This document shows, piece by piece, positions 8,340 to 52,136 of a stretch of DNA of 57,795 nucleotides; the stretch's first letter is position 1, and each line of letters starts with the position of its first letter. The translations under genes were made by a program, and so were the position numbers. Below the pieces are notes generated by a model that did no database searches, was not told where the DNA came from, and was given only the letters and a program-made list of their open reading frames with translations. The stretch is from Candidatus Woesearchaeota archaeon. GTDB lineage: Archaea > Nanobdellota > Nanobdellia > SCGC-AAA011-G17 > CAYHUM01. Location of the stretch: the NCBI GenBank assembly GCA_964359945.1, contig CAYHUM010000001.1, positions 1 through 57,795 of the forward strand, read 5' to 3'.

Positions 8340-11300
8340 TTAAATGGTAAATGTATCTTGCATATTTACCCAATATCCTTTACCAGGAATAAAGTAATCT
8401 AAGGATTTGTTTAATTCTATATAATTACTTCCATTGAAATCAAATACAGATAATGAGTTATTTGTTATTAATGAATCTATTTTAACATTATTTAAGGAAT
8501 TTACACCTATTAAATTCCATCCTTGATTTAAGGTTAAAGATGGTTTAGTACCATTAGCGTAATTCAAAGTTCCATTTATAGATATATTAAAATTAGTTTT
8601 AACTATAACAAAGTATGATCTTAAAGGTTCAATAATATTTAAATTTGAAGGTAAACTTATGTTACTATGATATACTTTCCATGTATTGTTATCATAACTA
8701 TAAATATCTACTTCATTACTTCCAAATATAGCTGAGATAGTATTATTATCAACTATTATTGGAATACTAATTAAATTTACAGTTTGATTTAAAGTTATGT
8801 TAAATAAATTATTACTTATAGTTAAGAAATGAGTTTCAAAAACTCTTGTATAATTTTCATTGCCTTCATATATAGTAGTAATATTATATATGCCTAAACT
8901 ATATGTATTTAAATATTGTATAGGGCTTATTGCATTTGCTACTAAAATATCATCTATAAATAATTTTATTGTACCAAGGCCATTTAATAAATATGCACTA
9001 ATATTTACTGTGTCTTGAGGACTTGCGGTTATATCATTGTCTTGTCCATTTAATAATAAATTAATTATAGATACTCCTTTATTAATTGTAACTGTAAATG
9101 TTAAACCTGTGCTATTTTCAGTATAATTTTGGTTGCCTGTACTATTTATTTTATATGAATAAGTTCCAGGTATTAAAGTAATATTTAATCCATTTTCATT
9201 GTTTATACTTATTCCATTCCGATATAAACTCATTACCCTAGCTGAACTAGTACCAGTAGCATTAAGTTGTTGAGGATAATTAATGTTTATATTTTGATTT
9301 AGTAATGAATTTAGATAAAGATTAACTGAATTAGATGCTTTGTTTATAGTGTATCCACTTACAAATACAGAGCTAGTAAAGTTTTGTGTATTTGGAGTTC
9401 TACATTCATATGAATAAGAATTTGCTCCCAATAATACGAATAAATTATTTTCTGGGGTAACATCAACAGAATTTCTAAATAATGAAGTAGCTGAAGTTTC
9501 AGGATTACTAGAACTACAAGATGCATTTATAGAAGTACCATAGATTACTGGGCTAGATGGATTAAATACTAATGATATAGAAGGATTGTTACTTTTATTT
9601 ATTTGATAGTTAAATATGGGAGTTAAATTTAAATTTCCACTAGTATCATTAGCATACCATCTATACTGATAATTACCTGCAGCCAAATCACTTATATTAT
9701 AATAATATTCATTTCCATTATTTAATACAGAATAATTTCTTAATAGGCCTTCAAAATCATGTTCTATGAATACCTTATCTACTGCAACATTATCAGTCCA
9801 TGTAATATTAAATTGATATGTATTATTCTTTATGTAATTTGAATATGAGTTTACAGATGTTTTATTATTACTCCATAATGGAGGAGGGTTATAAAATTCT
9901 TCTATGTCTATAGTAAATGAAGGTTCTGGAGAAGTGTAATTAGCTAAAAATACCCAATCTATTGACATAGTATGCAAGAATCCAACATTATGGAATTTAA
10001 TTGCTAGAGAACTATTAGTTATGGCTGATGGAGCTACCCAACCTGTAGTTGAATCAGTTCTAGATTTGTTCACAAACCATTCTATTCTAGTTTGAGGAAT
10101 CCATTTTATTTCATAAGTATAGGATTTATTTGCTATAAAAGTTTGAGCGTATCCACTATATATACCAGCACCTCCAAAATACTCAGCTCTTAGTCCTAAA
10201 CTATCTCGTGTAAATCTAATAACTGGATCATTTGTACAGTTCTGATATGTTACATTACATTGGAATCCCAACATCCAATTAGGATTAGCACTAAATGAAT
10301 TACTTGTATGTAATACTTTACTTTCAAATACTTGAGAACCAGTAATATTAAGATTACTAATCAACCATTTAGGAGAACCACTTAAGTTTGCTAAACCTCC
10401 TGAAACAATAGTACCATTATTAGTCCATTTACTTAAATCAAGACTATTAAAATCATCAAAGAACCAAAATATATTACTTCCATTTCTAGGAGGGCTTATA
10501 GCAGAACTATAACCATAATACATCCAATAATTATCATCAAAACCTAAAGGAGCAATATTATTTTGTAGTTTAAACCATAAACTTGTATTAACATTATTAA
10601 ATATATAATCATCAAACCTATCTAATTCTGTATTACTAACACTATTCCAATAAACTATCCTTAAATCATCTCCATTAATTAAACTTTTACCTTGAGAAAC
10701 TAAGTTAGTATGGTTAAATAATATGTTAACTGGGTTTTCTGCATTTAAAGTACTACCCATACTATTTATTATAATAATTCTTTTTCTATACAAATAATTA
10801 GAATCCCACCAAGGAACATATTTTTCGGTTATTGTTAATGTTCTATTAGTAGAGAAACTACATTGGCTTGAATTATCACAAGCACTTATTGCCCATATAT
10901 TACTTCCATTTGGTAATTGTTTTGTAAACAAGTAGTTACCCATTATACCAGAACTGTTAGTTTCATTCAAATGCCACTTTGGATAAGAATGCCATAGTGA
11001 TACATTTATAATTGAATTAGGTGATACATTTATAATTGAATTAGCATCAAAAATTGTTGCATTAAATACTATTGTGTTAATTACAGTATTAAAATTATCT
11101 TGTGGAGAATTCAAAATTATTATAGTCTGCCCTAATGGTATGCATTGTCCTGCCTGGTTTACTTCACCAGAAGCCAAATAAGTCACATTAAATCCACTTC
11201 CATTATAGTAAGCAGTAGCAAATGCACATGGTGTTTGTGTTTTGAATATGTCTTGAGTTTTCCATTCTACAAAATAATTCCCTGTATTGCAAGTGATGTT

Positions 11301-14300
11301 TTTGAGTTCAGGCGGCCAGCTAAAAGTAGAAGGGAAAAGGCATGAAAGCGCCCAAATATCTTCATAGTTTGCTACATTGCTTTTTTGTGTAGCATCTGTG
11401 TCGGGCCAAGTAACATTCAGATAGCCGCTGTAGTCCCTAATAAGATTTATATAATAGAATGGCAATGAATTTTCTTGCAGCCCTAAAAACTCACCAAATA
11501 AGCCTCGCTCATTCTGGAAGCAAGCAATCCAATACCAAGAAGTACAGCTTGCTAAAACACTAGCTTTGAATGGTGGTTTGAATAAGGCATAGTGGCTTTT
11601 TAGAGGCGGATTGTTTACAGGACGTTTGGTAAGATCAAAATTAAGAGGCCCGTCATCCCACCTCTCCACCCTTGCAAGCTTAAAAGTCGTGATAAAGTCA
11701 GTCCGGCCAAAACCAACAATCCAATAGTGGCAATTTTCACAGGTGGAATTTCTTATAATATACTTTTTCGTTTTCGGAAATGTTTCATTCCAAATCCCCA
11801 CCCCTAGAAGAGGCAGAAATTCAGAATAGACAGCCATCGCCATCCCCACCTTTGTAAAATCTTTAAATGGGTTATCAAGCTCAAATTTTATTTCTGCTAA
11901 TTCTGAAGCAGGAATTTCTATATCCAAGGAATTAAATGGATAATAAATTATAAATGGTAGAAATGCAAAGTCTGTGGCTGGTAAAACAAAAGGTTGTCCA
12001 ACAACAGGAATAATTGCACCGAAATCAAAATCTTTAATACCTCCCCAAGCCCCCTCAAAGTGATATTCTGGAGAAACGTCAGTTGGGTCTAAGGCAAATT
12101 CATAATCGAAACTTATTCTTTCCCTGGCTTCGGTTGCTGTCTGTAACCCACACCTTGCATTTGGCGCACTACCAGCAAATTTGCACGGCCTTGAAAGAAA
12201 TGCATATACACTATAGTTTGTATAATTACCTTGGGCTATTATGTTGGGTTTAATGAATGTTATTTTCTTGGCATCCCTTTCGTCAACAGAAACTGTTATA
12301 GAACCGCTTGGGGGTATGCTCACATTCCTTACAAATGATGCATGTTTATACTTATATTGAGCCCCACCTAATCCTCCAGATTTAGCATAAATAGTGAAAA
12401 GCAAGAAATTTATATCAAATGATTCGTTATTAACTAATAGACTGATTTGTGAGTTTTCATCGAAAATATAATTCGCAGATTCACTCATCCAGTTCCCATC
12501 CTTGTCAATGAATTGAGCTGCAAAATAATGGAATTCATAGCCAGGATCACCTGGTACCCAAGTCACATTAGGCCAGGTAACATTTATTGTCAAATTGTAA
12601 AACTTCCCGAAAGAAATCGGTATTGTAACATTTGCTAATTTTTGCGTGAAAGAACAGTCAGAATAAATTGTAAGGTTGAGATGACCAGCAAAAAAATCAG
12701 TGGGTAAAGAAGCTATGTTCCCACTAACTGGGATTGTAGCCGGCGATGAAATGCATCCTTGCTCATTTATTTCAATTGGATAAGAATTATAAGAGTTTTT
12801 ATCTGCAATCTTAATTGCAAAATCTTTTAAAACATATCCAATATTACCAGATTTATTAAAGGATAAATTAAATGCAGTTGAAAATGAACTTTGAGCTGGA
12901 TTTATTATCCCCAAATTAATAGAATTCGGCTCTGTAAATGAATTGCTATGAATCGAATTTTTTAAAATAAGTCTTCCAGCCCCTTGCTCAAAAATATTTA
13001 CCAAATAATAATCTATAAGAGGGCTTGACCTATAAAGTTGAACTGAATTACCCATGAGAGCGCTTTTTATTTGATTCGGAGTCCATGAAGGATTTGCCTG
13101 AAGCATCAACGCAACAGCTCCCGCAACATGAGGTGTTGCCATGGAGGTTCCGCTCAAGGCAATATATTCTGGATTTCCGCAATTCTGCGGCAAATATATG
13201 TCAAACAGGCTATTTTTAGCCCGAGCAGCACATATATTAACCCCAGGAGCCACAACATCAGGCTTTAAGTTATATTTAGGTCTGGCAGGACCTCTGCTGC
13301 TAAAATCTGCAACAGCATTAACATTATCAGACTGTCCAGATAATAGCTGACTGCTTGCCCCAACAGTTATGGCCTCTTCCGTAATACCCGGAGTATTAAT
13401 AGTGAAATATCTCGGTCCATGATTCCCTGCAGCTACTACTACAGGGACTCCTTGCAAAACAGCTTGCCTTACCCCTTCTTCCATAATAGGAGAGCTTCCA
13501 AAACCTCCCAAACTCATACTTATAACATTCGCATTATTTGTAACTGCCCATTCTATTCCTGAAACAATCCACGATTCAAATCCAGAGCCAGAATCATCTA
13601 AAACCTTTCCGTTTAAGATATAAGCCTGAGGAGCAACCCCAACAAACTTGTAATTTGAAGCCTGTCCAGTTCCTGCAGCAGTGCTTGCCACATGGGTTCC
13701 GTGGCCTACCAAATCAGCAGGACCTGTTGCTCCGCCTGTAAAGTCAGCCTCAGCAATCACCTTTGGATCACTGGTTATAGGATTATCATCCAGATCATCC
13801 AAGTCGGGGTGTGATTTGTTTATACCTGTATCAATTATAGCAATTTTAATCCCAGAGCCATTGTAACCATAAAGCGGATTTGAGTTCCATGTGGTTCGAT
13901 TCATACCAAGGATAACCGGAACGCTGTTGTTCAATTGCATTCTTAATTTAGAATCCAACCTTAATCCCTTCACTTTTGGAGCTGATTTAATTGCAAGCGC
14001 AACATTTTTTAAATTTTCTTTCTTAGCTTTCAAAGAAACAGCAGCTACAGATTTGAATGTTAGCCTGAAGGTAGCGCCCTTTTGCTTAGCAATTGTTTTA
14101 ATGCTTGAAATTGTTTGTGCATTTTCCGGAACTACACTCAAATCCTTTACAACAGTTAACGAAGCAATTGCAGCTTTCAGAGAGGGCTTGCTAGCAGTCT
14201 GCCTCAATTCAAAATCCTTTCTTTTCTGTGGGTAATATGCTACAGGAGAATCATAGCTCACAAGAACTGGTATTTCAGGTGATAAAGCATAATCCACCAG

Positions 14301-14978
14301 GTCTTGTTTTGTATATTCAATGCCAGCCTTTATCAGAATCTCTTCAAATAATCTCTCATCTGTGGTTCTTAAAGTCTCAGTTGAAGGAAGCTTGATTTCA
14401 TTTTTTACAATTGCTGGTCCCTTTTCAGAGAACTGTTGATCAATAGGCAAAATCCCAATCTCAGGATTCGTTACAATCAAGCCATCTCTATACAAGCTAA
14501 CACTCGATGCATTTGTATAAGAAGGACCTACTAAAGGACTTAATGCTCCTTGAATTCCTATACTTTGACTAACACTTAATTGATTTGAAGAGATTATTTC
14601 ATTACTAGGATTATTTAATTCATAAACTTTAAAGTAATATTCTGGATCACCTGAAGAATCTTCTTGATATTCTGCACTCCAAGTAAATTTAACAATACCA
14701 TGATTTAATGTTAGTATTTGAGGATTAATATTTACTTTATCATCACCATTGCCAAATACTTCATCTATAAAACTATCATCTTCCCATATAGTTACATTAA
14801 TTTCTTGACCATCACAATTAGTTGCAGTTATAGTAGCATCTACTAATTCATTTTCACCAGCAGAAGTTTGATCCCAAGAAGCAGAAGTAAGAGTACATGC
14901 ATTTACTGATTTTATAAATAAAAAAATAAATAAAGGTACGATTAAAATTACAGCACTCTTTTTTAGATTATTATACAT
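8340..14978 (-). CDS. giant secreted multidomain subtilisin-like (peptidase S8) surface protein, 2,212 aa
   Basis: Signal peptide MYNNLKKSAVILIVPLFIFLFIKSVNA. S8 catalytic residues are present: IAIIDTGI (Asp), HGTHVASTAAG (His), AAGNHG (Asn) and GTSMATPHVAGAVALM (Ser). Further on come a DUF2341-like segment (YRKRIIIINS...DDLRIVYW), a LamG-like segment (FDDFNSLDLSKWTNNG), Ig-like repeats and a C-terminal GWNLIG...PGKGYWV module. Confidence 0.85.
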   Translation of the reverse strand: MYNNLKKSAVILIVPLFIFLFIKSVNACTLTSASWDQTSAGENELVDATITATNCDGQEINVTIWEDDSFIDEVFGNGDDKVNINPQILTLNHGIVKFTWSAEYQEDSSGDPEYYFKVYELNNPSNEIISSNQLSVSQSIGIQGALSPLVGPSYTNASSVSLYRDGLIVTNPEIGILPIDQQFSEKGPAIVKNEIKLPSTETLRTTDERLFEEILIKAGIEYTKQDLVDYALSPEIPVLVSYDSPVAYYPQKRKDFELRQTASKPSLKAAIASLTVVKDLSVVPENAQTISSIKTIAKQKGATFRLTFKSVAAVSLKAKKENLKNVALAIKSAPKVKGLRLDSKLRMQLNNSVPVILGMNRTTWNSNPLYGYNGSGIKIAIIDTGINKSHPDLDDLDDNPITSDPKVIAEADFTGGATGPADLVGHGTHVASTAAGTGQASNYKFVGVAPQAYILNGKVLDDSGSGFESWIVSGIEWAVTNNANVISMSLGGFGSSPIMEEGVRQAVLQGVPVVVAAGNHGPRYFTINTPGITEEAITVGASSQLLSGQSDNVNAVADFSSRGPARPKYNLKPDVVAPGVNICAARAKNSLFDIYLPQNCGNPEYIALSGTSMATPHVAGAVALMLQANPSWTPNQIKSALMGNSVQLYRSSPLIDYYLVNIFEQGAGRLILKNSIHSNSFTEPNSINLGIINPAQSSFSTAFNLSFNKSGNIGYVLKDFAIKIADKNSYNSYPIEINEQGCISSPATIPVSGNIASLPTDFFAGHLNLTIYSDCSFTQKLANVTIPISFGKFYNLTINVTWPNVTWVPGDPGYEFHYFAAQFIDKDGNWMSESANYIFDENSQISLLVNNESFDINFLLFTIYAKSGGLGGAQYKYKHASFVRNVSIPPSGSITVSVDERDAKKITFIKPNIIAQGNYTNYSVYAFLSRPCKFAGSAPNARCGLQTATEARERISFDYEFALDPTDVSPEYHFEGAWGGIKDFDFGAIIPVVGQPFVLPATDFAFLPFIIYYPFNSLDIEIPASELAEIKFELDNPFKDFTKVGMAMAVYSEFLPLLGVGIWNETFPKTKKYIIRNSTCENCHYWIVGFGRTDFITTFKLARVERWDDGPLNFDLTKRPVNNPPLKSHYALFKPPFKASVLASCTSWYWIACFQNERGLFGEFLGLQENSLPFYYINLIRDYSGYLNVTWPDTDATQKSNVANYEDIWALSCLFPSTFSWPPELKNITCNTGNYFVEWKTQDIFKTQTPCAFATAYYNGSGFNVTYLASGEVNQAGQCIPLGQTIIILNSPQDNFNTVINTIVFNATIFDANSIINVSPNSIINVSLWHSYPKWHLNETNSSGIMGNYLFTKQLPNGSNIWAISACDNSSQCSFSTNRTLTITEKYVPWWDSNYLYRKRIIIINSMGSTLNAENPVNILFNHTNLVSQGKSLINGDDLRIVYWNSVSNTELDRFDDYIFNNVNTSLWFKLQNNIAPLGFDDNYWMYYGYSSAISPPRNGSNIFWFFDDFNSLDLSKWTNNGTIVSGGLANLSGSPKWLISNLNITGSQVFESKVLHTSNSFSANPNWMLGFQCNVTYQNCTNDPVIRFTRDSLGLRAEYFGGAGIYSGYAQTFIANKSYTYEIKWIPQTRIEWFVNKSRTDSTTGWVAPSAITNSSLAIKFHNVGFLHTMSIDWVFLANYTSPEPSFTIDIEEFYNPPPLWSNNKTSVNSYSNYIKNNTYQFNITWTDNVAVDKVFIEHDFEGLLRNYSVLNNGNEYYYNISDLAAGNYQYRWYANDTSGNLNLTPIFNYQINKSNNPSISLVFNPSSPVIYGTSINASCSSSNPETSATSLFRNSVDVTPENNLFVLLGANSYSYECRTPNTQNFTSSVFVSGYTINKASNSVNLYLNSLLNQNININYPQQLNATGTSSARVMSLYRNGISINNENGLNITLIPGTYSYKINSTGNQNYTENSTGLTFTVTINKGVSIINLLLNGQDNDITASPQDTVNISAYLLNGLGTIKLFIDDILVANAISPIQYLNTYSLGIYNITTIYEGNENYTRVFETHFLTISNNLFNITLNQTVNLISIPIIVDNNTISAIFGSNEVDIYSYDNNTWKVYHSNISLPSNLNIIEPLRSYFVIVKTNFNISINGTLNYANGTKPSLTLNQGWNLIGVNSLNNVKIDSLITNNSLSVFDFNGSNYIELNKSLDYFIPGKGYWVNMQDTFTI
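10997..11044. repeat. perfect 2 x 24-bp in-frame tandem duplication inside the giant gene
   Basis: gtgatacatttataattgaattag occurs at 10997..11020 and again at 11021..11044. It gives the peptide NSIINVS(P/L) twice. Confidence 0.9.
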
Positions 14979-14979
14979 T

Positions 14980-15486: not shown

Positions 15487-15526
15487 AAGAATTACAGATA
15501 AATTTTAATTAATAATCTTTTCGGTT

Positions 15527-16012: not shown

Positions 16013-16056
16013 TACTAAATAAATTTTTAATGTTATTAATATATTTTATGGTTTCA

Positions 16057-16072: not shown

Positions 16073-16092
16073 AATACTTATTTGGTGTATTT

Positions 16093-16752
16093 ATGAATTT
16101 AAAAGAATTAAGAAAAATAAATCTAGATGAAACAAGTAAAAAAATTAAAGAAAGTTTTAGTAAAGATTTGTTAATTATAAGAGCTATTCATAATCTTGAT
16201 GAGCTAATCAAGGTAATAAATAAGTTAATGGGATCTTTACGTGAATGGTATTCTTATTATTATCCTGAATTAATTAGAAATATTCAGACTAATGAGGAGA
16301 TTTTAGATTTAATTTTAAGCAATAAAAAAAGAAATGATAGTATAGGTTATGATTTTAATAATGAAGATTTAGATTTAATAAATAATTTTGCTAAATCCAT
16401 AAAGAATTTGTATAGTATTAAGCAAGAACAAGAAAATTACATAGATAGAATAATAAAAGAAATTTGTCCTAAATTAAGTAAAATAACTGAAACTTTGGTT
16501 ATTGCAAGATTAATAGAGAAAGCAGGTAGTTTAAAGAATTTAGCTCAATTACCAAGTAGCACAATTCAAGTTTTGGGGGCTGAAACTTCTTTCTTTAAAG
16601 GTCTGAAAACTAAGAAATCACCTAAATTTGGGGTGGTTTTTTCAAGTTCACTCGTTGTAAATGCGAGAAAAGAAGATAAGAGTAAAATAGCTAGAAAATT
16701 ATCAAATAAAATAGCTTTGGCAGCAAGACAGGATTATTATGGTAAACATTGA
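16093..16752 (+). CDS. nop5: box C/D RNP protein Nop5 (Nop56/58), short form lacking the N-terminal domain
   Basis: LLIIRAIHNLDELIKVINKLMGSLREWYSYYYPEL ... AQLPSSTIQVLGAETSFFKGL ... KIARKLSNKIALAARQDYY is the coiled-coil plus Nop domain. The protein is only 219 aa. Confidence 0.8.
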   Translation: MNLKELRKINLDETSKKIKESFSKDLLIIRAIHNLDELIKVINKLMGSLREWYSYYYPELIRNIQTNEEILDLILSNKKRNDSIGYDFNNEDLDLINNFAKSIKNLYSIKQEQENYIDRIIKEICPKLSKITETLVIARLIEKAGSLKNLAQLPSSTIQVLGAETSFFKGLKTKKSPKFGVVFSSSLVVNARKEDKSKIARKLSNKIALAARQDYYGKH

Positions 16753-17416
16753 AAAGACTAAATTTGAAGGTATTTATTTTTATTGGAAAGATAAAAAGAA
16801 AATTTTACTAACTAAAAATTTAACTCCAAGTAAAAAATACTTCAATGAAGATTTAATTTCTGAAAATAATATAGAGTATAGAGAGTTTGATGTTAGAAGA
16901 AGTAAATTGGCTAGTGCGGTATTAAAAGGAATAAATTTTCTTCCGTTTAAACAAGATAGTATAGTTTTGTATTTAGGAGCTTCTTATGGGTATACCTCAA
17001 GTTATGTTTCCGATATATGTAATAATGGTTTTATTTTTGCTTTGGATTTTGCCCCCAGAGTTTTAATGGACTTGTATTTTTTATGTAAAGAAAGAGAAAA
17101 TATGACTTGTTTATTATATGATGCTAATCAACCTGAATTATATAAAGATAAAATTATAGAAGTAGATATAATTTATCAAGATATTGCACAGAAAAATCAA
17201 GTTGAAATTTTCTTGAAAAATATAGCAAGATTTTTAAAGAAAAAAGGTTATTGTATAATTGCAATAAAAGCAAGAAGTATAGATACACTAAAAAAACCTG
17301 ATAATATATATAAAGAGGTGGAGAAAGAATTGGAAAAAAATTTAAGGATCATAGATAAGATTAAATTAGATCCATTTCAAAAAGATCATTGTTTTTTTGT
17401 TTGCCAGAAAAAATGA
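16739..17416 (+). CDS. flpA: fibrillarin-like rRNA/tRNA 2'-O-methyltransferase
   Basis: YREFDVRRSKLASAVLKG...VLYLGASYGYTSSYVSDI...FALDFAPRV...DANQP...DIAQ are the fibrillarin SAM-binding motifs. It overlaps nop5 by 14 nt. Confidence 0.9.
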   Translation: MVNIEKTKFEGIYFYWKDKKKILLTKNLTPSKKYFNEDLISENNIEYREFDVRRSKLASAVLKGINFLPFKQDSIVLYLGASYGYTSSYVSDICNNGFIFALDFAPRVLMDLYFLCKERENMTCLLYDANQPELYKDKIIEVDIIYQDIAQKNQVEIFLKNIARFLKKKGYCIIAIKARSIDTLKKPDNIYKEVEKELEKNLRIIDKIKLDPFQKDHCFFVCQKK

Positions 17417-18258
17417 GAACTATAGAAGATGCTATTGGATTAGCTGCTACTAAAATTGCTAATGATATAGATGCTAATTGTATTGTTTCTGTTACAGGCA
17501 TGAATAATAAAAAAGAAGGTATAGAAGAAGATCATTTACATTTAGACGTACAAGTTGCTATTTTCAAGCAGGTTAAAAAAGGGGTTTATAGTAAAATTGA
17601 TTATCAAACTAGTATTAGCAAAGTTTCTTATGGTTCTATTGTTCCTATTAAAGAAATATTAATGGAGGGTATAAGTAAAAATTATATTAAGAAAGGTGAT
17701 AAAGTAGTGTGTGCCGCAGACGCAAGTATAGGTTCAGGTTATAAAGGATTATTATTTGTATTTGATGTAGATAGGGTATTCTTTAATATAAGTACTCATA
17801 ATTTAGCTGAAAAAACTAGTCCTGATGTTATAGAAACTTTAGTTAATATAGCTTTAGAAATATCAAAAGAAGGTAGAGAAGGAAGAAGAGTAGGAACTGC
17901 ATTTGTAATTGGGGATAAACAAGAAATTTTAAAATATATTAAACAATTAATTATTAATCCATTTGCGGGATATCCTGAAAGTGTAAGAAAAATAACTAAT
18001 CCTGCTTTAAAAGAAACCATAAAAGAATTTTCTCAATTAGATGGAGTATTTGTTGTAGATAATTCAGGAATGGTCGTTACAAGTGGGGCTTATATTGATA
18101 TACCTACTTTAGATTTAGAAATGCCACAAGGTTTAGGAACAAGACATAGGAGTTGTGCTGCTATTACTAAAGAAACAGGGTCTATTGCAATTGTAGTTAG
18201 TCAAAGTGGTTCAGTAAGGGTTTTAAAGTCTGGTAAAATAGTTTTAAAGTTGCAATAA
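17413..18258 (+). CDS. dacZ: diadenylate cyclase, DacZ-type (PK_C-like N-domain plus DAC domain)
   Basis: From the ATG at 17413, which forms an ATGA overlap with the flpA stop (the track start at 17389 is TTG). DAC motifs are present: GTAFVIGD...LDGVFVVDNSGMVVTSGAYI...GLGTRHRSCAAITKETGSIAIVVSQSGSVRV. The N-terminal half resembles the pyruvate kinase C-terminal domain. Confidence 0.8.
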   Translation: MRTIEDAIGLAATKIANDIDANCIVSVTGMNNKKEGIEEDHLHLDVQVAIFKQVKKGVYSKIDYQTSISKVSYGSIVPIKEILMEGISKNYIKKGDKVVCAADASIGSGYKGLLFVFDVDRVFFNISTHNLAEKTSPDVIETLVNIALEISKEGREGRRVGTAFVIGDKQEILKYIKQLIINPFAGYPESVRKITNPALKETIKEFSQLDGVFVVDNSGMVVTSGAYIDIPTLDLEMPQGLGTRHRSCAAITKETGSIAIVVSQSGSVRVLKSGKIVLKLQ

Positions 18259-18265
18259 TTTTTCT

Positions 18266-21002: not shown

Positions 21003-21016
21003 TTTTTCATTTTAAA

Positions 21017-21102
21017 TGCGCCGACCGGGATTCGAACCCGGATCATCGGCTTACTCCTTGTTTAATGGAAGGCCGAGATTCTAGCCATTGAACTATCGGC
21101 GC
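21017..21102 (-). tRNA. tRNA-Gly (anticodon UCC) with a 14-nt intron at the canonical 37/38 position
   Basis: Reverse complement: GCGCCGA TA GTTC AATGGCTA GAAT C TCGGC CUUCCA [UUAAACAAGGAGUA] A GCCGA TGAT CCGGG TTCGAAT CCCGG TCGGCGC A. C32-U-U-C35 can pair with the intron GGAG, flanked by two 3-nt bulges (BHB-like). Confidence 0.8.
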
Positions 21103-22940: not shown

Positions 22941-23509
22941 AAAAATCAAAGAAAAAAGTAAATAAATTATTAGTATTATTAACATTAATTTTCATAGGAA
23001 TTATTTTCTTTAATTTTTATACAATTAATTACTATAAAAAAGCTATTAATACTTTTGATCAAGTAAAAGAAGATAGATTAAAAGAAATTAGGACCATAGA
23101 TGAAGAAGAGATTAAAGATGCTTTAAATTTAGATAATTATTTAGAAGCTACCATAAATTTAACTCAGAATAATTTAGTTTTTATAAGTAATTGCAGTGCA
23201 TTAGTTATGACTATAGTAGATGCACAAGCTATTTCTATTTATCAAGGTATGAACAAAAAAATAGATGTAAGGCCTTCTACACATGACTTAATAGTTGATG
23301 TTTTTGATGATTTTAATATTACTACATTAATGATTAAAATTGAGCCTTTAGGGAGTGAGTTATATGCAGCAAGATTATTCTTAAAACAAGGAAATAAAAT
23401 ATTAAGTTTAGATACAAGACCAAGTGATAGTGCAGGTATAGCTGTAAGATTAAATACACCTGTTTATATAAATAAAGAATTGTTACCTAGAACTGTTAAG
23501 ATTTGTTAA
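22937..23509 (+). CDS. membrane-anchored bifunctional nuclease (BFN/DUF151) domain protein
   Basis: ATGA overlap with the S16 gene. It has a K-rich N-terminus followed by a TM helix. The BFN core is ALVMTIVDAQAISIYQGMNKKIDVRPSTHDLIVDVF...LYAARLFL...LDTRPSDSAGIAVRLNTPVYI. Confidence 0.7.
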   Translation: MKKSKKKVNKLLVLLTLIFIGIIFFNFYTINYYKKAINTFDQVKEDRLKEIRTIDEEEIKDALNLDNYLEATINLTQNNLVFISNCSALVMTIVDAQAISIYQGMNKKIDVRPSTHDLIVDVFDDFNITTLMIKIEPLGSELYAARLFLKQGNKILSLDTRPSDSAGIAVRLNTPVYINKELLPRTVKIC

Positions 23510-25655
23510 TTCTTTTTCTTATTAAATAGAATGAAACTAATACTATTATTACTAATATTATATTTAGTGTTGTGAAGAATGGTATTTTTGTTCCAGGCAA
23601 TGGTGAACAAGTTCTATTTGTAATTAACATATTTGTTATTGGTGGGTTTGCAGTTAAATCATAAGTTGTTAAATTAACTGTTTGCAAATAAATCCCAGAA
23701 TTAATAGGATTTTCTGAACATCTACCTACTTGTTCTACATCATATACATCTGGGCTATAGTAATTATATGTATCACATGTTTCTGTTGGAGGGCAACATG
23801 TTTCACCATTACCACAGGTATAATTAGCTATTACATTACCACTACATGTTTGAGAACTACTACAACAAGTTCCAGGACAAGGTTCACCTGGATCTATACA
23901 TAAATTTACATCAGTACATCCCCATATACCAGTTTGATTACAACATACTTTATTAGCTAATTGATCACATGGGAAGTTATCTGGATCACTATAACAATCT
24001 CCACCACCTTGACATGCTCCATCAACACAATTCATTCCTATACTAGCACAATCAAAACTAGATTCTGATAAAAATCCAGTTGAATTGCAATAAATTTCAT
24101 TTAAATTAGTGCTACTAATACAACTATCAGTTAGTGTTGTGTTGAAATATTCAATGAGTATATATTTACTCTTAACACCATAGGCTGTTCCTTTTATAGT
24201 GTAATTTTGAGTTGGTAAATCAGTATCACTACAATCGACTTTACAAGTAAAAGGATCTTTACATCCGAAAGGACATATATAAGTATCAAATACAGTATTA
24301 TTTCCATTACATTTATACTCTTTTAAAATTCCATTACTACAAGTATCATTATAAACAACGTTTCCAGGATTTATTGTTACACCAGCTTTAAAGTAAGCTG
24401 GTCTGTATGATAATCTATAAATATCTCCTCCATCACTGTTATCTGGAGTACAAGTTTGAGAAGAACTAACACAAGCTCCATTCTGGCATACTAGTCCGTC
24501 TGAAACACAATTATGAGTTTGAGAAGCATTAATGTTCCCATTACAATAATATTCTCTTAACGTATCTGAATTTCCTACACAAAAATCAGTGTAGCTATAC
24601 CCTATGCTATTATAATTTCCAGTAATTGTTCCTTGTGTAGGATAAGTTATACCACTATCAGTATCTGAACATGTATCAGAAATAGCGCCTGCAAATTTAA
24701 AATTACCTGCTAAATTATTTGTCCCACTTACATAACTTCCAGGAATATAATTAGGATTGTTGTATAATGAAGCATTTCTAGGATAGACTCTTTTAGTTAG
24801 ACAATCATTGGTTATGTCAGGAACTATCCAATTAGTACTTATAGTTTGAGGGGTTAGAGTATTTGTCATACTTAAACTTCCAAAAACTCCACTTATATCA
24901 CCACCAGTTTTTGTTACATTACAAGAAGGATTAATTATAGAGGTATCGTTTGCATCTACTTGTATGTATTTAGTTCCTGCACATTGTCCTGTATATGTAA
25001 TAATTATGGCAACTGGGTCTCCTTTTTCACAATCAGAACTAGTTCCATAAAAAGGACATAAAACTCCGCTTAACTCTACTTTTTGTAATATACAACCACA
25101 ATCAGGATCATTATTATCAACTAAACCATCACAATCATTATCATAACCATCTGTACATCCATTTCCAAAATTACCTTGTTCTGTAGTAGGAGCATTTCTA
25201 CTCCATGTCCAAGGATTTGCAAGTTTTCCTACATTTCCTACATTACAAATTAAAGGAGAACCACCACAATCATAAAAAGATTGATTACATTGTTTTGATT
25301 GATCACAAATTTCAGAAAGAACTGGAACACAAGTAGGAGAATATGGATAATAGTAATATATACTATTTATGTTTTGATCTGGGCATTTATCATAACATTC
25401 TGAAGGAGGTGAAATTGGATTACAACCTTCTATTGGTTCACAAGTACATGTACAGATAGGTGGTTCAGTTTTTGGTGTTGCAGCATAACATACATTACAA
25501 TTATTTTGAGTAACTTTGCACACAGTTCTGCCACCTTGGTTTTCAGGTACTGCCTTACAATCACCTTGAGATTTAACGTTATTGGTTAATGTTAATGAAA
25601 ACATTACTAGAATAATTAATAGAAAAATATTTTTAAGTAAAACACCTTTTTTCAT
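23496..25655 (-). CDS. cysteine-rich modular surface protein with signal peptide and C-terminal TM anchor (719 aa)
   Basis: Signal MKKGVLLKNIFLLIILVMFSLTLT. It contains the metal-binding-like motif CTDGYDNDCDGLVDNNDPDC and three copies of the CxD(S/T)D...L(R/K/N)E(Y/I)(Y/K)C...C..G.C module. The C-terminus is PLPGTKIPFFTTLNIILVIIVLVSFYLIRKR. Confidence 0.65.
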   Translation of the reverse strand: MKKGVLLKNIFLLIILVMFSLTLTNNVKSQGDCKAVPENQGGRTVCKVTQNNCNVCYAATPKTEPPICTCTCEPIEGCNPISPPSECYDKCPDQNINSIYYYYPYSPTCVPVLSEICDQSKQCNQSFYDCGGSPLICNVGNVGKLANPWTWSRNAPTTEQGNFGNGCTDGYDNDCDGLVDNNDPDCGCILQKVELSGVLCPFYGTSSDCEKGDPVAIIITYTGQCAGTKYIQVDANDTSIINPSCNVTKTGGDISGVFGSLSMTNTLTPQTISTNWIVPDITNDCLTKRVYPRNASLYNNPNYIPGSYVSGTNNLAGNFKFAGAISDTCSDTDSGITYPTQGTITGNYNSIGYSYTDFCVGNSDTLREYYCNGNINASQTHNCVSDGLVCQNGACVSSSQTCTPDNSDGGDIYRLSYRPAYFKAGVTINPGNVVYNDTCSNGILKEYKCNGNNTVFDTYICPFGCKDPFTCKVDCSDTDLPTQNYTIKGTAYGVKSKYILIEYFNTTLTDSCISSTNLNEIYCNSTGFLSESSFDCASIGMNCVDGACQGGGDCYSDPDNFPCDQLANKVCCNQTGIWGCTDVNLCIDPGEPCPGTCCSSSQTCSGNVIANYTCGNGETCCPPTETCDTYNYYSPDVYDVEQVGRCSENPINSGIYLQTVNLTTYDLTANPPITNMLITNRTCSPLPGTKIPFFTTLNIILVIIVLVSFYLIRKRINKS

Positions 25656-25664
25656 ATTATTACC

Positions 25665-28208
25665 TTATTTTTGCTTTATATTTAAACTTTTTCTTTTAAA
25701 GGCTTCATCTATTTGTTTTTTAGTCCATCCTTTTAATAATAAAGCTTGTCTTATTCTAAATTCAGGAATACCTTTTTTTAAACTACTATTAACATAATTT
25801 TCAAGAACAATTTGTTGAACTTTATTTTTAAATATATTTGGTTTAATTATATCTTTAATATGAATTTTACCTTTAACAAAGAAATATGTCAAAGCTAAAA
25901 TACCTAAAAGTAATGGTATTAAAATTAACCATATTGAAGAACCTCTTTTACAATCTTGAGGACACCAATTACTATCTTCTATAGGTTTTTCACATACCTT
26001 ATTACCACATTCATATGTTATTTCAGGTTCTTTAAATACAATTGTTTTAGTATTTCTTATATCTTGTAATTGTCCTTCTGGTAATAAATAAATATATTCT
26101 ATGTAATCATTAACATTACTAAATTTAGCTGCATTATTATTAAAAATCTCTAAATCTTTAGTTAGGAAAATTGCTTCTTCTGGATTACATTGAGTAGAAC
26201 AAATATTAGCTAGTCCATTAAGATCTTCAAGTACAATTAAATTATTTCCATTGTTTATTGAAATTTGTTTCTTTACTAGTCTTTTACTTTCTTCTTTATC
26301 ATTAATATATTTTATTTTTACTCCATATACATTAGTATTAATAACAACATCTCTTTGATTTAGTTCATATGTAGAAGTTTTGTATTCTATGGTAGAAGGT
26401 AAATCTATTATTCTTGGATTAATGTCATCTATGTTACTTATTTTTGCGTTTGTCTGAAATGAACTTATAACAAAAAATGATTTAGGAGTAGTGTCTTCTA
26501 TATTTGTAATTTTATTAAAAATATCTTCGTAAGTAGGATCTTTTTCTTCCATACTTACATTAGAATTAAGAGTTTCTTCATATTTTGATTTTAAATCATC
26601 TAATTCATCTAAACTAGAATCTAAATAAGGCAAATAAATATTATAAATATCTTTTATTACTCCTTTTTGATTTTGAAATAAATTCTTAGTTTTTTTTATT
26701 GTATTTTTATTTGAATTTATAATGCTACCAATATTATCTTCTAAAGCTCCTATGTAGATAATCTTTGATATAGAATTTTTAATATTATTTATTGTTTTTA
26801 CTGTTAATTTTATTGTATAATTTCCAGGCAATAAATAACTATGAGTGGCTTCTTTAGTAAATGCACTTGAATTATCTCCAAAATTCCATTCCCATGAAGC
26901 TATTACGTCTTTAGATTCTCCTATAAATTTAATTTCTTCATTTTCTAAAGCAAAGTTTTTATTTAGTGTAATAGAAACATCTGGCAATGAAGTAACATTA
27001 AAGTCTTGAGATGTTTCTTTATTGTTTAAATTAAAGGTTAGTTTATATTTACTTATTGTGTTAGGAGTAATTAAATTAGGTATTGTTTCTAGATTAATTA
27101 AAGCATAATCAAAGTTTATTTTTTCTGGAATTTGATTTATATTATATAAGGTAGATCTTTTTATGCTTTCTTCTCTTATGTCTAAATTATCTAAGGATAT
27201 AGAACCTTTAGAACTTGAACTTATGTTAATTGGAATAAGACAGAAATTATTATTATCAAGAGTACATGTTCCTAAATAGTCATTTATAGCATCTATAAAT
27301 TTATTATTTGAAAATGTAGTCTTATTTTTTAATTCTGTATCGTAAATTGCATATCTTAAATTGTAGTAATATGAATAACTATAAAGAAATTCAAATACAG
27401 GCATACTATAATAATCTTTTACTTGAGAACTTTTACTATACAAACATATACTATGAATTCCAGAACTAGGATTAGGTATTTTAACAGAGCAAGATACTTT
27501 AGTTAAGGTAGTTCCGGGCTCAGGTAATTTACATTCTGCAATATTATCAAAAGAAGCTGTTAAGTTCCCTCCATCTGAAACTTTTTGTACATTAGCTGTA
27601 ATCTCTATCAAAGTTTCATTTAATAGTTCATTTAAAGTTATATTTATATCTTCACATATTTTACTATTTTTTATAACTGCACTTCCTGTTGGTGCTTTAC
27701 TTTCAGAAATTCCTTCTTGATAAATTGGATTACTCCATCTTAGAAAATTTCCTGCATATTCATACTCTGCTTTATGGTCATTACCTATATCTATAATAAC
27801 ATCTTTTGGAAATGACCCTTCTAAATTCAATCCTAGAATATCTAAAGAAGCATAATTTACTAGATTTTTTATCTTAACTCCAAATAAAAATGATTCTCTA
27901 CTATTAAAATTCTTTACTAAGGTAGCAGAACCACCACTTTCTACATAATAAGATTCATTTATATTAAATAATATAGAATTACTTTCCAATAAATCCTTTA
28001 TAGAAATTCTTGTTAGTTCATTATTATCTATTTTTGCTATTAATGGTGTGGATGAAGGTATATCATATACTGAAGTTATATTTAAATAACCATTAAATTG
28101 CTGTAAAGGACCATATTGCAATTGGTTTAAACTTAGATTTAAATCTAGAGAATTTACTAATGGTATTATGAGAAATATAAGTAATACTACTAATACACCT
28201 CTTTTCAT
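25665..28208 (-). CDS. secreted PKD-domain surface protein with C-terminal TM anchor and short cytoplasmic tail (847 aa)
   Basis: Signal MKRGVLVVLLIFLIIPLVNS. PKD signature WEWNFGDNSSAFTKEATHSYLLPGNYTIKLTV. A juxtamembrane CGNKVCEKPIEDSNWCPQDC is followed by a TM helix. Confidence 0.65.
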   Translation of the reverse strand: MKRGVLVVLLIFLIIPLVNSLDLNLSLNQLQYGPLQQFNGYLNITSVYDIPSSTPLIAKIDNNELTRISIKDLLESNSILFNINESYYVESGGSATLVKNFNSRESFLFGVKIKNLVNYASLDILGLNLEGSFPKDVIIDIGNDHKAEYEYAGNFLRWSNPIYQEGISESKAPTGSAVIKNSKICEDINITLNELLNETLIEITANVQKVSDGGNLTASFDNIAECKLPEPGTTLTKVSCSVKIPNPSSGIHSICLYSKSSQVKDYYSMPVFEFLYSYSYYYNLRYAIYDTELKNKTTFSNNKFIDAINDYLGTCTLDNNNFCLIPINISSSSKGSISLDNLDIREESIKRSTLYNINQIPEKINFDYALINLETIPNLITPNTISKYKLTFNLNNKETSQDFNVTSLPDVSITLNKNFALENEEIKFIGESKDVIASWEWNFGDNSSAFTKEATHSYLLPGNYTIKLTVKTINNIKNSISKIIYIGALEDNIGSIINSNKNTIKKTKNLFQNQKGVIKDIYNIYLPYLDSSLDELDDLKSKYEETLNSNVSMEEKDPTYEDIFNKITNIEDTTPKSFFVISSFQTNAKISNIDDINPRIIDLPSTIEYKTSTYELNQRDVVINTNVYGVKIKYINDKEESKRLVKKQISINNGNNLIVLEDLNGLANICSTQCNPEEAIFLTKDLEIFNNNAAKFSNVNDYIEYIYLLPEGQLQDIRNTKTIVFKEPEITYECGNKVCEKPIEDSNWCPQDCKRGSSIWLILIPLLLGILALTYFFVKGKIHIKDIIKPNIFKNKVQQIVLENYVNSSLKKGIPEFRIRQALLLKGWTKKQIDEAFKRKSLNIKQK

Positions 28209-33826: not shown

Positions 33827-33900
33827 TTTTGATTTGTTATTTCAATTTATAAAAAGATATTTAAAAGTTTCCGCATAATATAAAGTATAATTTAATTAAG

Positions 33901-33984
33901 CGCAGAGGAAGGGATTTGAACCCTTATATCCTTGCGGAAACCAGTTTTCGAGACTGGCGCACTACCAGATTATGCGACCTCTGC
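33901..33984 (-). tRNA. tRNA-Ser (anticodon CGA), long variable arm
   Basis: Reverse complement: GCAGAGG TC GCA..TGC G CCAGT CTCGAAA ACTGG [long variable arm TTTCCGCAAGGATAT] AAGGG TTCAAAT CCCTT CCTCTGC G. This is a type II tRNA with G73. Confidence 0.85.
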
Positions 33985-34091
33985 AAAACTATTTAAAATG
34001 TGGCAAACAAGAATATAAAAATGTTACTTATGTCTCACAATTTATGAATTTAAAAGGAATGTTTTTAAATACTTCTAAACCAAACATATTT

Positions 34092-36611: not shown

Positions 36612-36616
36612 TTTGA

Positions 36617-37735: not shown

Positions 37736-37738
37736 TTT

Positions 37739-39849: not shown

Positions 39850-39914
39850 AAGGAAAAATAGGTTAGAAAAGATTAAAAACCTTTTTATTATTGCCTTTTA
39901 AGAATGGTAACAAA

Positions 39915-40523: not shown

Positions 40524-40619
40524 ATTATTACATATAAATAGAAAATCTTATAAAAGTATTTTTTATTATATCCATAATTGATTTAGTAGTTTATATTTTA
40601 ATAACTTTAATATTTATAT

Positions 40620-42083: not shown

Positions 42084-42107
42084 AATAATAGAAATATGAC
42101 AAATTAT

Positions 42108-47845: not shown

Positions 47846-47900
47846 AAGAATAATAGATTAAAAAAATTTATAAAAGTTGTTAAAAAGAAACTTTATTTAT

Positions 47901-49112: not shown

Positions 49113-49169
49113 TTTTAGAAATTAATAATCTTTAGTTAGTAACTTACTTATATTTATAAAGATTTCGTT

Positions 49170-52116: not shown

Positions 52117-52136
52117 ATTCTAACATAAAATAAATT

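What the first reader, a model, noticed from the sequence alone, without database searches (positions are those of the whole stretch)
11130..14580. In-frame compositional mosaic: a GC-richer block of about 3.4 kb inside the AT-rich 2,212-codon protease gene
Hand counts on individual 60-nt lines give about 35-45% G+C inside roughly 11,130-14,580. Examples are lines 11281, 12001 and 13201 at 45%, 42% and 45%. The same gene gives about 18-30% on either side: lines 9001, 10561, 11041 and 14581 give 30%, 18%, 20% and 18%. The shift shows at synonymous positions. For example, YEDIWALSCLFPSTFSWPPELKNITC uses GCG, TGC, TTC, AGC, CCG, CTC, AAC and ATC codons that are almost absent elsewhere in the window. 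So amino-acid composition alone does not explain it. All four plus-strand shadow ORFs of the ORF track within this gene (11145..11345, 13141..13350, 13681..13866, 13891..14235) fall in this block, as expected when stop-rich AT composition is relaxed. The block encodes residues from about 133 to 1283: the propeptide-like region, the S8 catalytic domain and an unrecognised beta-rich region of about 600 aa. The signal peptide with first domain, and the DUF2341/LamG/Ig C-terminal half, look native. This pattern suggests a recent cassette replacement or horizontal acquisition fused in frame at both junctions.
Basis: seen in the sequence. Interest (0 to 1): 0.72.

Follow-up and report, generated by a model that had tools for sequence, protein, structure and literature searches.

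The report
Foreign protease module inside archaeal surface-protein gene
A 3.4-kb stretch inside one giant secreted-protease gene of a very AT-rich groundwater DPANN archaeon has the codon usage of a different, GC-richer archaeon. It matches the mature part of a stand-alone protease, so it is best read as a borrowed protease module spliced in frame into a resident surface protein: a clean example of a known process.

Summary
In the 2,212-codon gene 8340..14978 (-), third-position GC is 0.296 in codons 157-1284 (window about 11,112-14,510). It is 0.058 and 0.126 in the two flanks and 0.128 in 48 other ORFs of the window (block vs host chi-square p = 4.5e-58; flanks vs host p = 0.41).

The block is collinear with almost the whole length of stand-alone ~1,100-aa archaeal S8 proteases (32-35% identity). 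Those homologues sit in 32-37% GC contigs and have flat GC3 matching their neighbours, so constraint does not explain the step.

The replicate assemblies examined (three, separately assembled) from the same aquifer well show no alternative junction. Each of the three spans the N-terminal junction; one also spans the C-terminal junction. A chimera is therefore very unlikely.

Both flanks carry domains that co-occur in other surface proteins, some with an S8 domain, but none in this arrangement.

Best reading: a pro-subtilase module of foreign origin fused in frame into a native adhesin-like scaffold. "Recent" and "cassette replacement" are not demonstrated, because no donor or alternative allele was found. 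This is a new member of a known kind, of modest interest.

The parts
8340..14978 (-). Single ORF of 2,212 codons encoding a secreted multidomain S8 protease.
   Evidence: ORF list and translation. Pfam finds Peptidase_S8 at residues 374-645 (188.9 bits) and DUF2341 at 1437-1520. The only hydrophobic segment above the usual membrane threshold is residues 10-28, a signal-peptide-like stretch.
14511..14978 (-). N flank, codons 1-156, with host-like composition. It holds a signal peptide, one copy of a ~110-aa repeat domain (residues about 25-140) and a short linker.
   Evidence: GC3 is 0.058 and the codon log-likelihood ratio is -0.32 per codon. The domain matches 443 cluster representatives at E <= 1e-3, usually as multiple copies in giant proteins. 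It co-occurs with LamG and cohesin domains.
11112..14510 (-). Compositionally foreign block, codons 157 to about 1289. It holds a propeptide-like region, the S8 catalytic domain (D383, H426, N519, S612), a beta-sandwich region and a family-specific C-terminal region of about 500 aa.
   Evidence: GC3 is 0.296, four-fold-site GC is 0.249 and the codon log-likelihood ratio is +0.139 per codon. The block is collinear with stand-alone proteases: P0001 residues 69-1031 of 1115, and P0007 residues 98-1096 of 1125. The AlphaFold model has pLDDT 67.4, and its top Foldseek match is ProN-Tk-SP (3afg, E 8e-38).
14483..14531 (-). N-terminal breakpoint, given as its support interval. The first G/C-ending run begins at the TCG codon near 14,507.
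   Evidence: Change-point support interval is codons 150-166. The sequence was read. The junction is spanned at 100% identity by L011 (replicate 3) and L006 (replicate 1), and by L012 (replicate 2) with one mismatch in the block.
11073..11289 (-). C-terminal breakpoint, given as its support interval. The last G/C-ending run ends near 11,124, just before 'TIIILNSPQDNF', which I read as the start of the next Ig-like domain.
   Evidence: Change-point support interval is codons 1230-1302. The sequence was read. The P0007 alignment ends at query residue 1276, 29 residues before the end of P0007. The junction is spanned by L006 at 100% identity.
8340..11111 (-). C flank, codons about 1290-2212, with host-like composition. 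It holds an Ig-like domain, DUF2341, a LamG-like region (by homologue annotation only), Ig-like repeats at about 1700-2055 and a conserved ~150-aa C-terminal domain (2061-2212).
   Evidence: GC3 is 0.126 and the codon log-likelihood ratio is -0.19 per codon. Homologues are surface proteins, nearly all of the named ones from DPANN archaea, at 27-57% identity over at most 63% of the query. The C-terminal domain co-occurs with the N-flank domain in about 14 other proteins.

Best explanation
The host is an archaeon with 27% GC. It is a DPANN archaeon of the Woesearchaeota type, recovered from the 0.1-um fraction of Hainich aquifer well H51.

Its giant secreted protease gene is a composite. The segment coding for an almost complete mature pro-subtilase came from another archaeon whose genome is GC-richer, roughly 35-40% GC, probably also a DPANN lineage. 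This segment covers the propeptide-like region, the S8 catalytic domain, a beta-sandwich region and a family-specific ~500-aa region, about 1,130 codons in all.

The segment now sits in frame between two host-type parts. Upstream is a leader made of a signal peptide plus one ~110-aa repeat domain. Downstream is a tail made of an Ig-like domain, DUF2341, Ig-like repeats and a conserved C-terminal domain. Both breakpoints fall at domain boundaries.

Mutation pressure toward A+T has not yet erased the donor's codon usage, so the module stands out at synonymous sites.

Functionally, the product is predicted to be an exported, catalytically competent subtilase carried on an adhesin-like scaffold.

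**Shown:** the compositional step, its boundaries, the collinearity with stand-alone proteases, the absence of the step in homologues, and the agreement of replicate assemblies.

**Inferred:** the direction of transfer (into this genome), the donor's GC and lineage, the order of events (insertion into an existing scaffold rather than accretion of host domains around an acquired gene), and the enzyme's activity.
For: **1. Composition.**
- Block GC3 is 0.296 and four-fold-site GC is 0.249. The host values are 0.128 and 0.083; the flank values are GC3 0.058 and 0.126, and four-fold-site GC 0.049.
- The codon log-likelihood ratio is positive only in the block.
- The block is the only compositional anomaly in 57.8 kb.

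**2. Not expression-linked codon bias.** Ribosomal protein L11 and Spt5, which lie next to the gene, have GC3 of 0.14 and 0.12.

**3. The block is one evolutionary unit.**
- It aligns collinearly with nearly full-length stand-alone proteases P0001 (1115 aa) and P0007 (1125 aa), and with the N-terminal 1,060 aa of P0002.
- The GC3 breakpoints fall within about 20 residues of where the mature stand-alone proteins begin and end.

**4. Homologues are compositionally native where they live.** Locus GC is 0.32-0.37. Protease GC3 is 0.21-0.27, flat along the gene and close to its neighbours. The block's values fit that range.

**5. Amino-acid composition.** The ratio of G+A+R+P to F+Y+M+I+N+K residues tracks genomic GC. 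It is 0.78 in the block, 0.42 in host proteins and 0.46 and 0.37 in the flanks.

**6. The flanks belong to one scaffold family.** The N-flank domain and the C-terminal 150-aa domain co-occur in about 14 other proteins without the block-type protease between them.

**7. Assemblies.**
- ENA assemblies of replicates R1, R2 and R3 all span the N-terminal junction.
- R1 also spans the C-terminal junction, at 100% identity from window 9,352 to 27,416.

**8. Genome context.** The gene lies between SecE-Spt5-L11 and Nop5-fibrillarin, which is core archaeal context.
Against: - No donor or close relative of the block exists in 5.8 billion proteins. The best full-length match is 32-35% identical, and the best match over the catalytic domain alone is about 50%. 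Phylogenetic incongruence is therefore not demonstrated.
- The block and the C flank have their named best hits among DPANN archaea, and the host's fibrillarin hits Woesearchaeota. The N-flank search gives no organism names.
- No flanking direct repeats, integrase or other mobile-element traces mark the junctions.
- No related genome with or without the block could be found. The nearest fibrillarin is only 63% identical.
- Only 57.8 kb of the host genome is available. Paralogues elsewhere, and genome-wide GC3 heterogeneity, are unknown.
- Read-level coverage across the junctions could not be examined.
Confidence: 0.74

Rival explanations
1. GC-biased gene conversion or frequent homologous exchange. 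The protease module is a recombination hotspot, being a surface protein under diversifying selection and possibly having paralogues elsewhere in the genome. Repeated conversion tracts would then have raised GC3 locally, with no single transfer from a GC-richer donor.
For: - The step is confined to one exchangeable module whose boundaries lie at domain borders.
- DPANN surface proteins shuffle these domains heavily.
- The C-terminal boundary is less sharp than the N-terminal one.
Against: - No paralogue of the block occurs in the window.
- The block's non-synonymous composition (GC1, GC2 and the GARP/FYMINK ratio of 0.78) is also shifted toward a GC-richer proteome, which conversion bias alone does not readily give.
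- Homologues in other AT-poor DPANN contigs show no GC3 excess over their neighbours.
- Population variants differ by at most one base in the block.
Confidence: 0.09
2. Selective or functional constraint. The nucleotide composition of the block would be maintained by selection, for example for codon choice that tunes translation and folding of the protease, for mRNA structure, or for an overlapping antisense gene or RNA.
For: - The block contains the most conserved part of the protein.
- Four antisense ORFs of 61-114 aa occur there.
Against: - Five homologous genes in other genomes show no internal GC3 step and match their neighbours.
- Highly expressed host genes keep GC3 near 0.12-0.14.
- The elevated GC3 extends over poorly conserved parts of the block as well.
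- The antisense ORFs have no Pfam match, and no Rfam family lies in the block. Antisense ORFs are expected wherever stop-rich AT composition relaxes.
Confidence: 0.05
3. Assembly chimera. A metagenome assembler joined DNA of two organisms twice, producing an apparent in-frame fusion.
For: - The sequence is a low-coverage metagenomic contig. ENA contig names give coverage of 3-5x.
- Two Logan contigs stop at 14,583 and 14,679, before the junction.
- Reads could not be inspected.
Against: - Three replicate samples, assembled separately, give the same N-terminal junction (L006, L011, L012). One of them plus the window contig give the same C-terminal junction.
- Both joins preserve one 2,212-codon reading frame and fall at domain boundaries matching the ends of a known protein module.
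- The Logan contig ends lie 73 nt or more from the junction, and at two different positions. This fits breaks caused by low coverage rather than a fork in the assembly graph at the junction.
Confidence: 0.04
4. Reverse order of events. A complete foreign protease gene was acquired first. Host-type domains were later added at both of its ends by duplication or fusion with neighbouring host genes, rather than the module being inserted into a pre-existing scaffold gene.
For: - The family is variable in this respect. P0002 and P0006 carry C-terminal CARDB extensions, and other S8 proteins carry the N-flank-type domain downstream of the protease.
- The composition data are equally compatible with this order.
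Against: - It needs two separate in-frame fusions instead of one insertion.
- The N-flank domain and the C-terminal domain co-occur in many proteins as one scaffold type.
- This is a variant of the best explanation (same foreign origin of the block), not an alternative to it.
Confidence: 0.2

Closest known systems
Compositionally atypical, horizontally acquired DNA that is later ameliorated (Lawrence and Ochman 1997), and lateral transfer of gene fragments or domains (Chan, Beiko, Ragan and co-workers, 2009). Both are cited from my own knowledge.
   Same: The segment has foreign GC3 and codon usage inside a genome of very different composition, and synonymous sites are the most strongly shifted. 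The transferred unit respects protein-domain boundaries.
   Different: The unit here is an internal 3.4-kb module of a single ORF with two in-frame junctions, in an uncultured DPANN archaeon. No donor, vector or mobile-element trace was identified, and no amelioration dating is possible.
Mosaic genes made by interspecies homologous recombination, such as the pbp genes of Streptococcus and Neisseria (cited from my own knowledge).
   Same: There is a block of foreign sequence inside an otherwise native gene, the reading frame is kept, and the breakpoints are sharp.
   Different: In classical mosaics the foreign block replaces a homologous native block and is 5-25% divergent from it. Here no native counterpart or alternative allele is known, the breakpoints coincide with the module ends rather than lying within homologous sequence, and the closest relative is only about 32% identical in protein.
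Tk-SP, the pro-subtilisin-like protease of Thermococcus kodakarensis (PDB 3afg), and long stand-alone DPANN S8 proteases (P0001, P0007).
   Same: It has an N-terminal propeptide-like region, an S8 catalytic domain with a D-H-S triad, and a following beta-sandwich domain. Foldseek gives E 8e-38 and a target-normalised TM-score of 0.69. It is collinear with P0001 and P0007 over about 1,050 residues.
   Different: The module has no signal peptide of its own. It is embedded between a host-type leader domain and a 920-aa adhesin-like tail. The ~500-aa region after the beta-sandwich has no Pfam match and only a low-confidence model.
SPEARE proteins of Nanohaloarchaeota (PMC6642349).
   Same: It is a giant extracytoplasmic DPANN protein that combines a serine-protease region with LamG or Ig-type adhesion domains. 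It is plausibly used at the interface with a host cell.
   Different: SPEARE proteins are defined by a C-terminal transmembrane anchor and a cytoplasmic type III restriction-enzyme region, which is their most conserved part (PMC6642349). This protein has no such Pfam match and no hydrophobic segment other than the signal peptide. It is not a SPEARE protein.

Membership tests
Peptidase S8 (subtilase) | Match to the family profile above the curated threshold. | tested here: met
   PF00082 scores 188.9 bits against a cut-off of 21.8, covering residues 374-645 and profile positions 1-273 of 288.
Peptidase S8 (subtilase) | Catalytic Asp-His-Ser triad in that order, with the oxyanion-hole Asn, in the conserved motifs. 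| tested here: met
   D383 (IIDTGI), H426 (HGTHVAS), N519 (AAGNHG) and S612 (GTSMATP). The corresponding columns are invariant in the 25-sequence alignment.
Peptidase S8 (subtilase) | Subtilisin fold with a propeptide. | tested here: met
   The AlphaFold model has pLDDT of 80-97 over the catalytic domain. Its top Foldseek matches are ProN-Tk-SP (3afg, E 8e-38) and pro-subtilisin E (3whi, target-normalised TM-score 0.86).
Peptidase S8 (subtilase) | Proteolytic activity. | not testable with these tools
   This needs expression and an enzyme assay.
Horizontally acquired segment (sub-genic transfer) | Synonymous-site composition and codon usage significantly different from the resident genome. | tested here: met
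   GC3 is 0.296 against 0.128 (p = 4.5e-58). Four-fold-site GC is 0.249 against 0.083. The codon log-likelihood ratio is positive only in the block.
Horizontally acquired segment (sub-genic transfer) | The anomaly is not intrinsic to the gene family: homologues elsewhere match their own genomes. | tested here: met
   In L001, L003, L004, L008 and L009 the protease GC3 is 0.21-0.27, flat along the gene and close to its neighbours.
Horizontally acquired segment (sub-genic transfer) | Phylogenetic incongruence or an identified donor lineage. | tested here: inconclusive
   The best hits to the block are DPANN archaea at 32-50% identity. The C flank's named best hits are also mostly DPANN, and the host's fibrillarin hits Woesearchaeota. 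The N-flank search gives no organism names. No close donor was found.
Horizontally acquired segment (sub-genic transfer) | Traces of the transfer mechanism, such as flanking repeats, an integrase or a viral or plasmid relative. | tested here: not met
   There are no direct repeats at the junctions. Viral contigs hold only generic S8-domain matches. This feature is not obligatory for the class.
Mosaic gene by homologous cassette replacement | Alternative alleles or cassettes at the same position in related genomes. | tested here: inconclusive
   No related genome or allele was found in the species-representative genomes, the JGI metagenomes or the protein collection. Population variants from the same well all carry the same block.
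SPEARE proteins (PMC6642349) | C-terminal transmembrane anchor plus a cytoplasmic type III restriction-enzyme region. | tested here: not met
   There is no Pfam match of that kind. The only hydrophobic segment above 1.6 on the Kyte-Doolittle scale is the N-terminal signal peptide.

The most novel reading that the evidence does not exclude
DPANN archaea may treat whole enzymatic 'warheads' as exchangeable cassettes on conserved surface scaffolds. The scaffold would be a leader domain, then the cassette, then an adhesin tail with a shared C-terminal domain. This would resemble the swapping of toxin domains in bacterial polymorphic-toxin systems. On this reading, the gene is a freshly caught exchange in which a pro-subtilase module from another DPANN lineage was slotted between domain boundaries. 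It would imply a recurrent mechanism that retargets how these episymbionts attack or attach to their hosts.
Probability: 0.1. Interest if true: 0.6.

Novelty: new member of a known kind. Interest (0 to 1): 0.3.

Why it matters
- Sub-genic horizontal transfer and domain shuffling are well known. Cases where the foreign piece is still visible at synonymous sites, with both breakpoints mapped to domain borders and confirmed in replicate assemblies, are uncommon in uncultured DPANN archaea.
- The case shows that these reduced-genome episymbionts remodel their large surface proteins by importing whole enzymatic modules. These proteins are the presumed tools of host contact.
- It gives a concrete target for expression studies: the protease module with and without its scaffold.
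- On the practical side, a strong internal GC step in a metagenome-assembled gene need not be a binning or assembly error.
- It does not open a new class of mechanism.

Tried and rejected
- **Exact look-up of the 2,212-aa protein** found nothing. The contig is nevertheless in the collection; the R1 assembly calls the gene as two pieces because of a scaffold gap.
- **Scans for close relatives** of the whole protein in species-representative genomes and JGI metagenomes found nothing useful.
- **Paralogues or internal repeats** at sequence level within the window or the protein: none.
- **Direct or inverted repeats marking the junctions:** none beyond chance-level short matches.
- **A second-level mosaic,** suggested by the GC3 dip at codons 643-732, was rejected (scan permutation p = 0.11).
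- **A viral vector:** the viral-contig scan returned only generic S8 catalytic-domain matches at 28-41% identity.
- **An antisense gene or structured RNA in the block:** no Pfam or Rfam match.
- **Taxonomic names** for the contigs carrying the best homologues: cluster look-up gave function names only.
- **More assemblies across the C-terminal junction:** the replicate-2 contig reaches only 96 codons into the 3' end of the gene.
- **SPEARE membership** was considered and rejected.
- **Literature searches** for an existing description of this gene or of sub-genic transfer in DPANN surface proteases found nothing specific.

Full report
**Observation**

The window is one complete 57,795-bp metagenomic contig with 27.2% GC. 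The gene at 8340..14978 on the minus strand is a single 2,212-codon ORF.

GC in 300-nt windows rises from 0.22-0.30 to 0.34-0.45 between about 11,050 and 14,500. No other 1-kb bin of the window exceeds 0.32. The shift is present at synonymous sites.

| Segment | Codons | GC3 |
|---|---|---|
| N flank | 1-156 | 0.058 |
| Block | 157-1284 | 0.296 |
| C flank | 1285-2212 | 0.126 |
| 48 other ORFs | - | 0.128 |

- In the 441 sixty-codon windows of those other ORFs, the maximum GC3 is 0.267.
- GC at four-fold degenerate sites is 0.249 in the block, 0.049 in the flanks and 0.083 in the host ORFs.
- Block vs host gives chi-square p = 4.5e-58. Flanks vs host gives p = 0.41.
- I also scored each codon, given its amino acid, under a "donor-like" and a host codon model. 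The cumulative score has its minimum at codon 156 and its maximum at codon 1289. The block scores +0.139 per codon, while every one of the 48 host ORFs is negative.
- Two-log-unit support intervals are codons 150-166 for the start and 1230-1302 for the end.
The four plus-strand ORFs do all lie inside it.

Two corrections apply. The synonymous shift starts at about 14,507-14,510, not 14,580, because codons 133-156 are all A/T-ending. The apparent internal dip at codons 643-732 is not significant (p = 0.11).

**What the block is**

Pfam places Peptidase_S8 at residues 374-645. The triad D383, H426 and S612 and the oxyanion-hole N519 are intact.

A search of the 1,128-aa block returned thousands of S8 proteins, but only a few cover it end to end:
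- P0001: 1,115 aa, 93% coverage.
- P0002: 1,735 aa.
- P0007: 1,125 aa, from a Nanoarchaeota MAG.

Pairwise alignments are collinear. Query residues 215-1265 align with P0001 residues 69-1031. Query residues 215-1276 align with P0007 residues 98-1096. P0001 and P0002 begin with what read as signal peptides; their mature N-termini project to about query residue 173-175.

By eye, the last residues of the block (QCIPLGQ, 1279-1285) resemble ECVPIIG near the end of P0007. This is my hand reading, not an aligned result.

So the compositional block corresponds, to within about 20 residues at each end, to the mature part of a stand-alone protease.

The AlphaFold model has mean pLDDT 67.4. It is high over the propeptide-like region, the catalytic domain and the following beta-sandwiches, and low over block residues about 760-1070. 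Its best match is ProN-Tk-SP of Thermococcus kodakarensis (3afg, E 8e-38).

**Is the GC pattern intrinsic to the family?**

No. I fetched the DNA of five homologues.

| Locus | Protein | Locus GC | Protease GC3 | Neighbouring genes' GC3 |
|---|---|---|---|---|
| L001 | P0001 | 0.37 | 0.27 | 0.19-0.42 (mostly 0.3-0.4) |
| L003 | P0002 | 0.32 | 0.25 | 0.17-0.34 (mostly ~0.25) |
| L004 | P0007 | 0.36 | 0.21 | - |
| L008 | P0006 | 0.32 | 0.27 | 0.20-0.25 |
| L009 | P0009 (same Hainich sample) | 0.36 | 0.23 | 0.26 (one gene) |

In each, GC3 is flat along the gene. The block's GC3 of 0.30 is what such genomes have and what the host lacks.

Highly expressed host genes next door (L11, Spt5) have GC3 of 0.14 and 0.12, so expression-linked codon bias is not the cause.

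The block's amino-acid composition is shifted too. The ratio of G+A+R+P to F+Y+M+I+N+K residues, which tracks genomic GC, is 0.78 in the block. It is 0.42 in host proteins, 0.46 and 0.37 in the flanks, and 0.54-0.67 in the homologues. This hints that the donor was at least as GC-rich as those genomes.

**The flanks**

The N flank is a signal peptide plus one ~110-aa domain (residues 25-140). That domain occurs, usually in several copies, in 443 cluster representatives. It is found together with LamG, cohesin and other extracellular domains.

The C flank holds DUF2341 (Pfam), Ig-like repeats at about 1700-2055 and a conserved 150-aa C-terminal domain. Its homologues are surface proteins, nearly all of the named ones from Nanoarchaeota, Woesearchaeota, Pacearchaeota and Aenigmatarchaeota. 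Identity is 27-57% over at most 63% of the query.

In about 14 proteins the N-flank domain and this C-terminal domain occur in the same protein, often adjacent, without a block-type protease between them. Both flanks therefore look like parts of one adhesin-like scaffold family.

The C-terminal breakpoint falls just before "TIIILNSPQDNF...", which I read as the first strand of the next Ig-like domain (inference).

Some S8 proteins carry these same accessory domains in other orders, so domain shuffling around S8 modules is common in these lineages.

**Host and context**

The neighbours are SecE, Spt5, L11, Nop5, fibrillarin, diphthamide synthase and ProRS, so the host is an archaeon and the gene sits in core context.

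Fibrillarin's closest named relatives are Candidatus Woesearchaeota, at only 57-63% identity. No close relative of the host is in the collections. The contig comes from the 0.1-um fraction of Hainich aquifer well H51.

**Chimera test**

Separately assembled replicates agree.
- The R1 scaffold (L006, L010, L095) is 100% identical to the window from 9,352 to 27,416. It spans both junctions. Its only differences cluster at 9,186-9,351, beside a scaffold gap.
- The R3 contig L011 is 100% identical over 16,688-11,918.
- The R2 contig L012 spans 16,968-13,620. Of its 42 mismatches, 41 lie at its far end (16,605-16,961) and one lies in the block.
- Two short Logan contigs end 73 nt or more before the junction, at two different positions. 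This fits low coverage.

A double, in-frame chimera that respects domain borders and is reproduced across replicates is very unlikely.

**Mechanism and limits**

No repeats, integrase or viral relative mark the event. No Rfam family or credible antisense gene lies in the block.

No donor was found, so "recent" means only "not yet ameliorated". Insertion into a scaffold, replacement of an older module, and accretion of host domains around an acquired gene cannot be told apart without a related genome.

GC-biased conversion at a recombination hotspot remains a minor alternative.

**Comparison with known things**

The enzyme module is a member of peptidase family S8 and resembles Tk-SP-type pro-subtilases.

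The evolutionary phenomenon is sub-genic horizontal transfer, that is, a mosaic gene detected by compositional atypicality. This is a long-known kind (my own knowledge: Lawrence and Ochman 1997; Chan et al. 2009).

The protein resembles the extracellular part of nanohaloarchaeal SPEARE proteins in combining a protease with adhesion domains. It lacks their defining transmembrane anchor and restriction-enzyme region (PMC6642349).

**Verdict**

This is a new member of a known kind, with interest of about 0.3.

Noticed in passing
window 21017..21102 (-): ARAGORN calls this a 'tRNA-Stop' with anticodon TTA, and Rfam confirms it is a tRNA (60.2 bits). Reading the sequence by hand, the anticodon stem TCGGC/GCCGA encloses CTTCCA, then 14 nt, then A. 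That fits an archaeal tRNA-Gly(UCC) with a 14-nt intron at position 37/38, not a suppressor tRNA.
   Followed up: partly
window 10997..11044 (-): There is a perfect 24-nt tandem duplication (GTGATACATTTATAATTGAATTAG twice), giving the repeated peptide NSIINVS(P/L). It lies about 80 nt downstream of the C-terminal breakpoint, in the host-like flank. It is also present in the independent R1 assembly, which is identical there. It looks like a very young in-frame slippage or duplication event.
   Followed up: partly
window 9186..9351 (L006 2255..2613): All 12 differences between the window and the R1 scaffold cluster here, in the Ig-like repeat region of the C flank. They sit next to a 10-N scaffold gap and 167 nt of unmatched sequence in L006. 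In that assembly this splits the gene into 1,914-aa and 371-aa calls. It is either strain-level variation in one repeat domain or a repeat-collapse problem.
   Followed up: partly
window 16605..16961 (L012) and 17703..17742 (L007): Replicate-2 contig L012 and Logan contig L007 are identical to the window except for dense SNP clusters. L012 has 41 differences in about 360 nt across the Nop5/fibrillarin overlap. L007 has 6 in 40 nt inside the DAC-domain gene. These may be short recombination tracts from a related strain, or graph cross-overs near contig ends.
   Followed up: no
window 23496..28208 (-) and 40620..42083 (-): The same contig carries further large predicted surface proteins: 719 aa with no Pfam match, 847 aa with PKD domains, and 487 aa with Laminin_G_3 plus dockerin. 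All have host-like GC3 of 0.09-0.15.
   Followed up: no
window about 33,900..56,700: This is a long, mostly minus-strand cluster of polysaccharide and glycan biosynthesis genes. It includes a flippase, a DegT-type aminotransferase, a radical-SAM/SPASM protein, glycosyltransferases and an epimerase-like protein. It is presumably a surface glycosylation locus.
   Followed up: no
window 17389..18258 (+): A DisA-type diadenylate cyclase (DAC) domain protein lies directly downstream of fibrillarin, overlapping its end. This suggests cyclic-di-AMP signalling in this reduced archaeon.
   Followed up: no
L009 (ENA ERZ1292623 contig, 5,610 bp): The same groundwater sample holds another Nanoarchaeota-type contig (GC 0.36). 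It carries an S8 protease 43% identical to the block's catalytic region, followed by a gene for a protein with weak LamG and faint dockerin Pfam matches. It shows that GC-richer DPANN carrying related proteases coexist with the host, but it is not the donor.
   Followed up: partly
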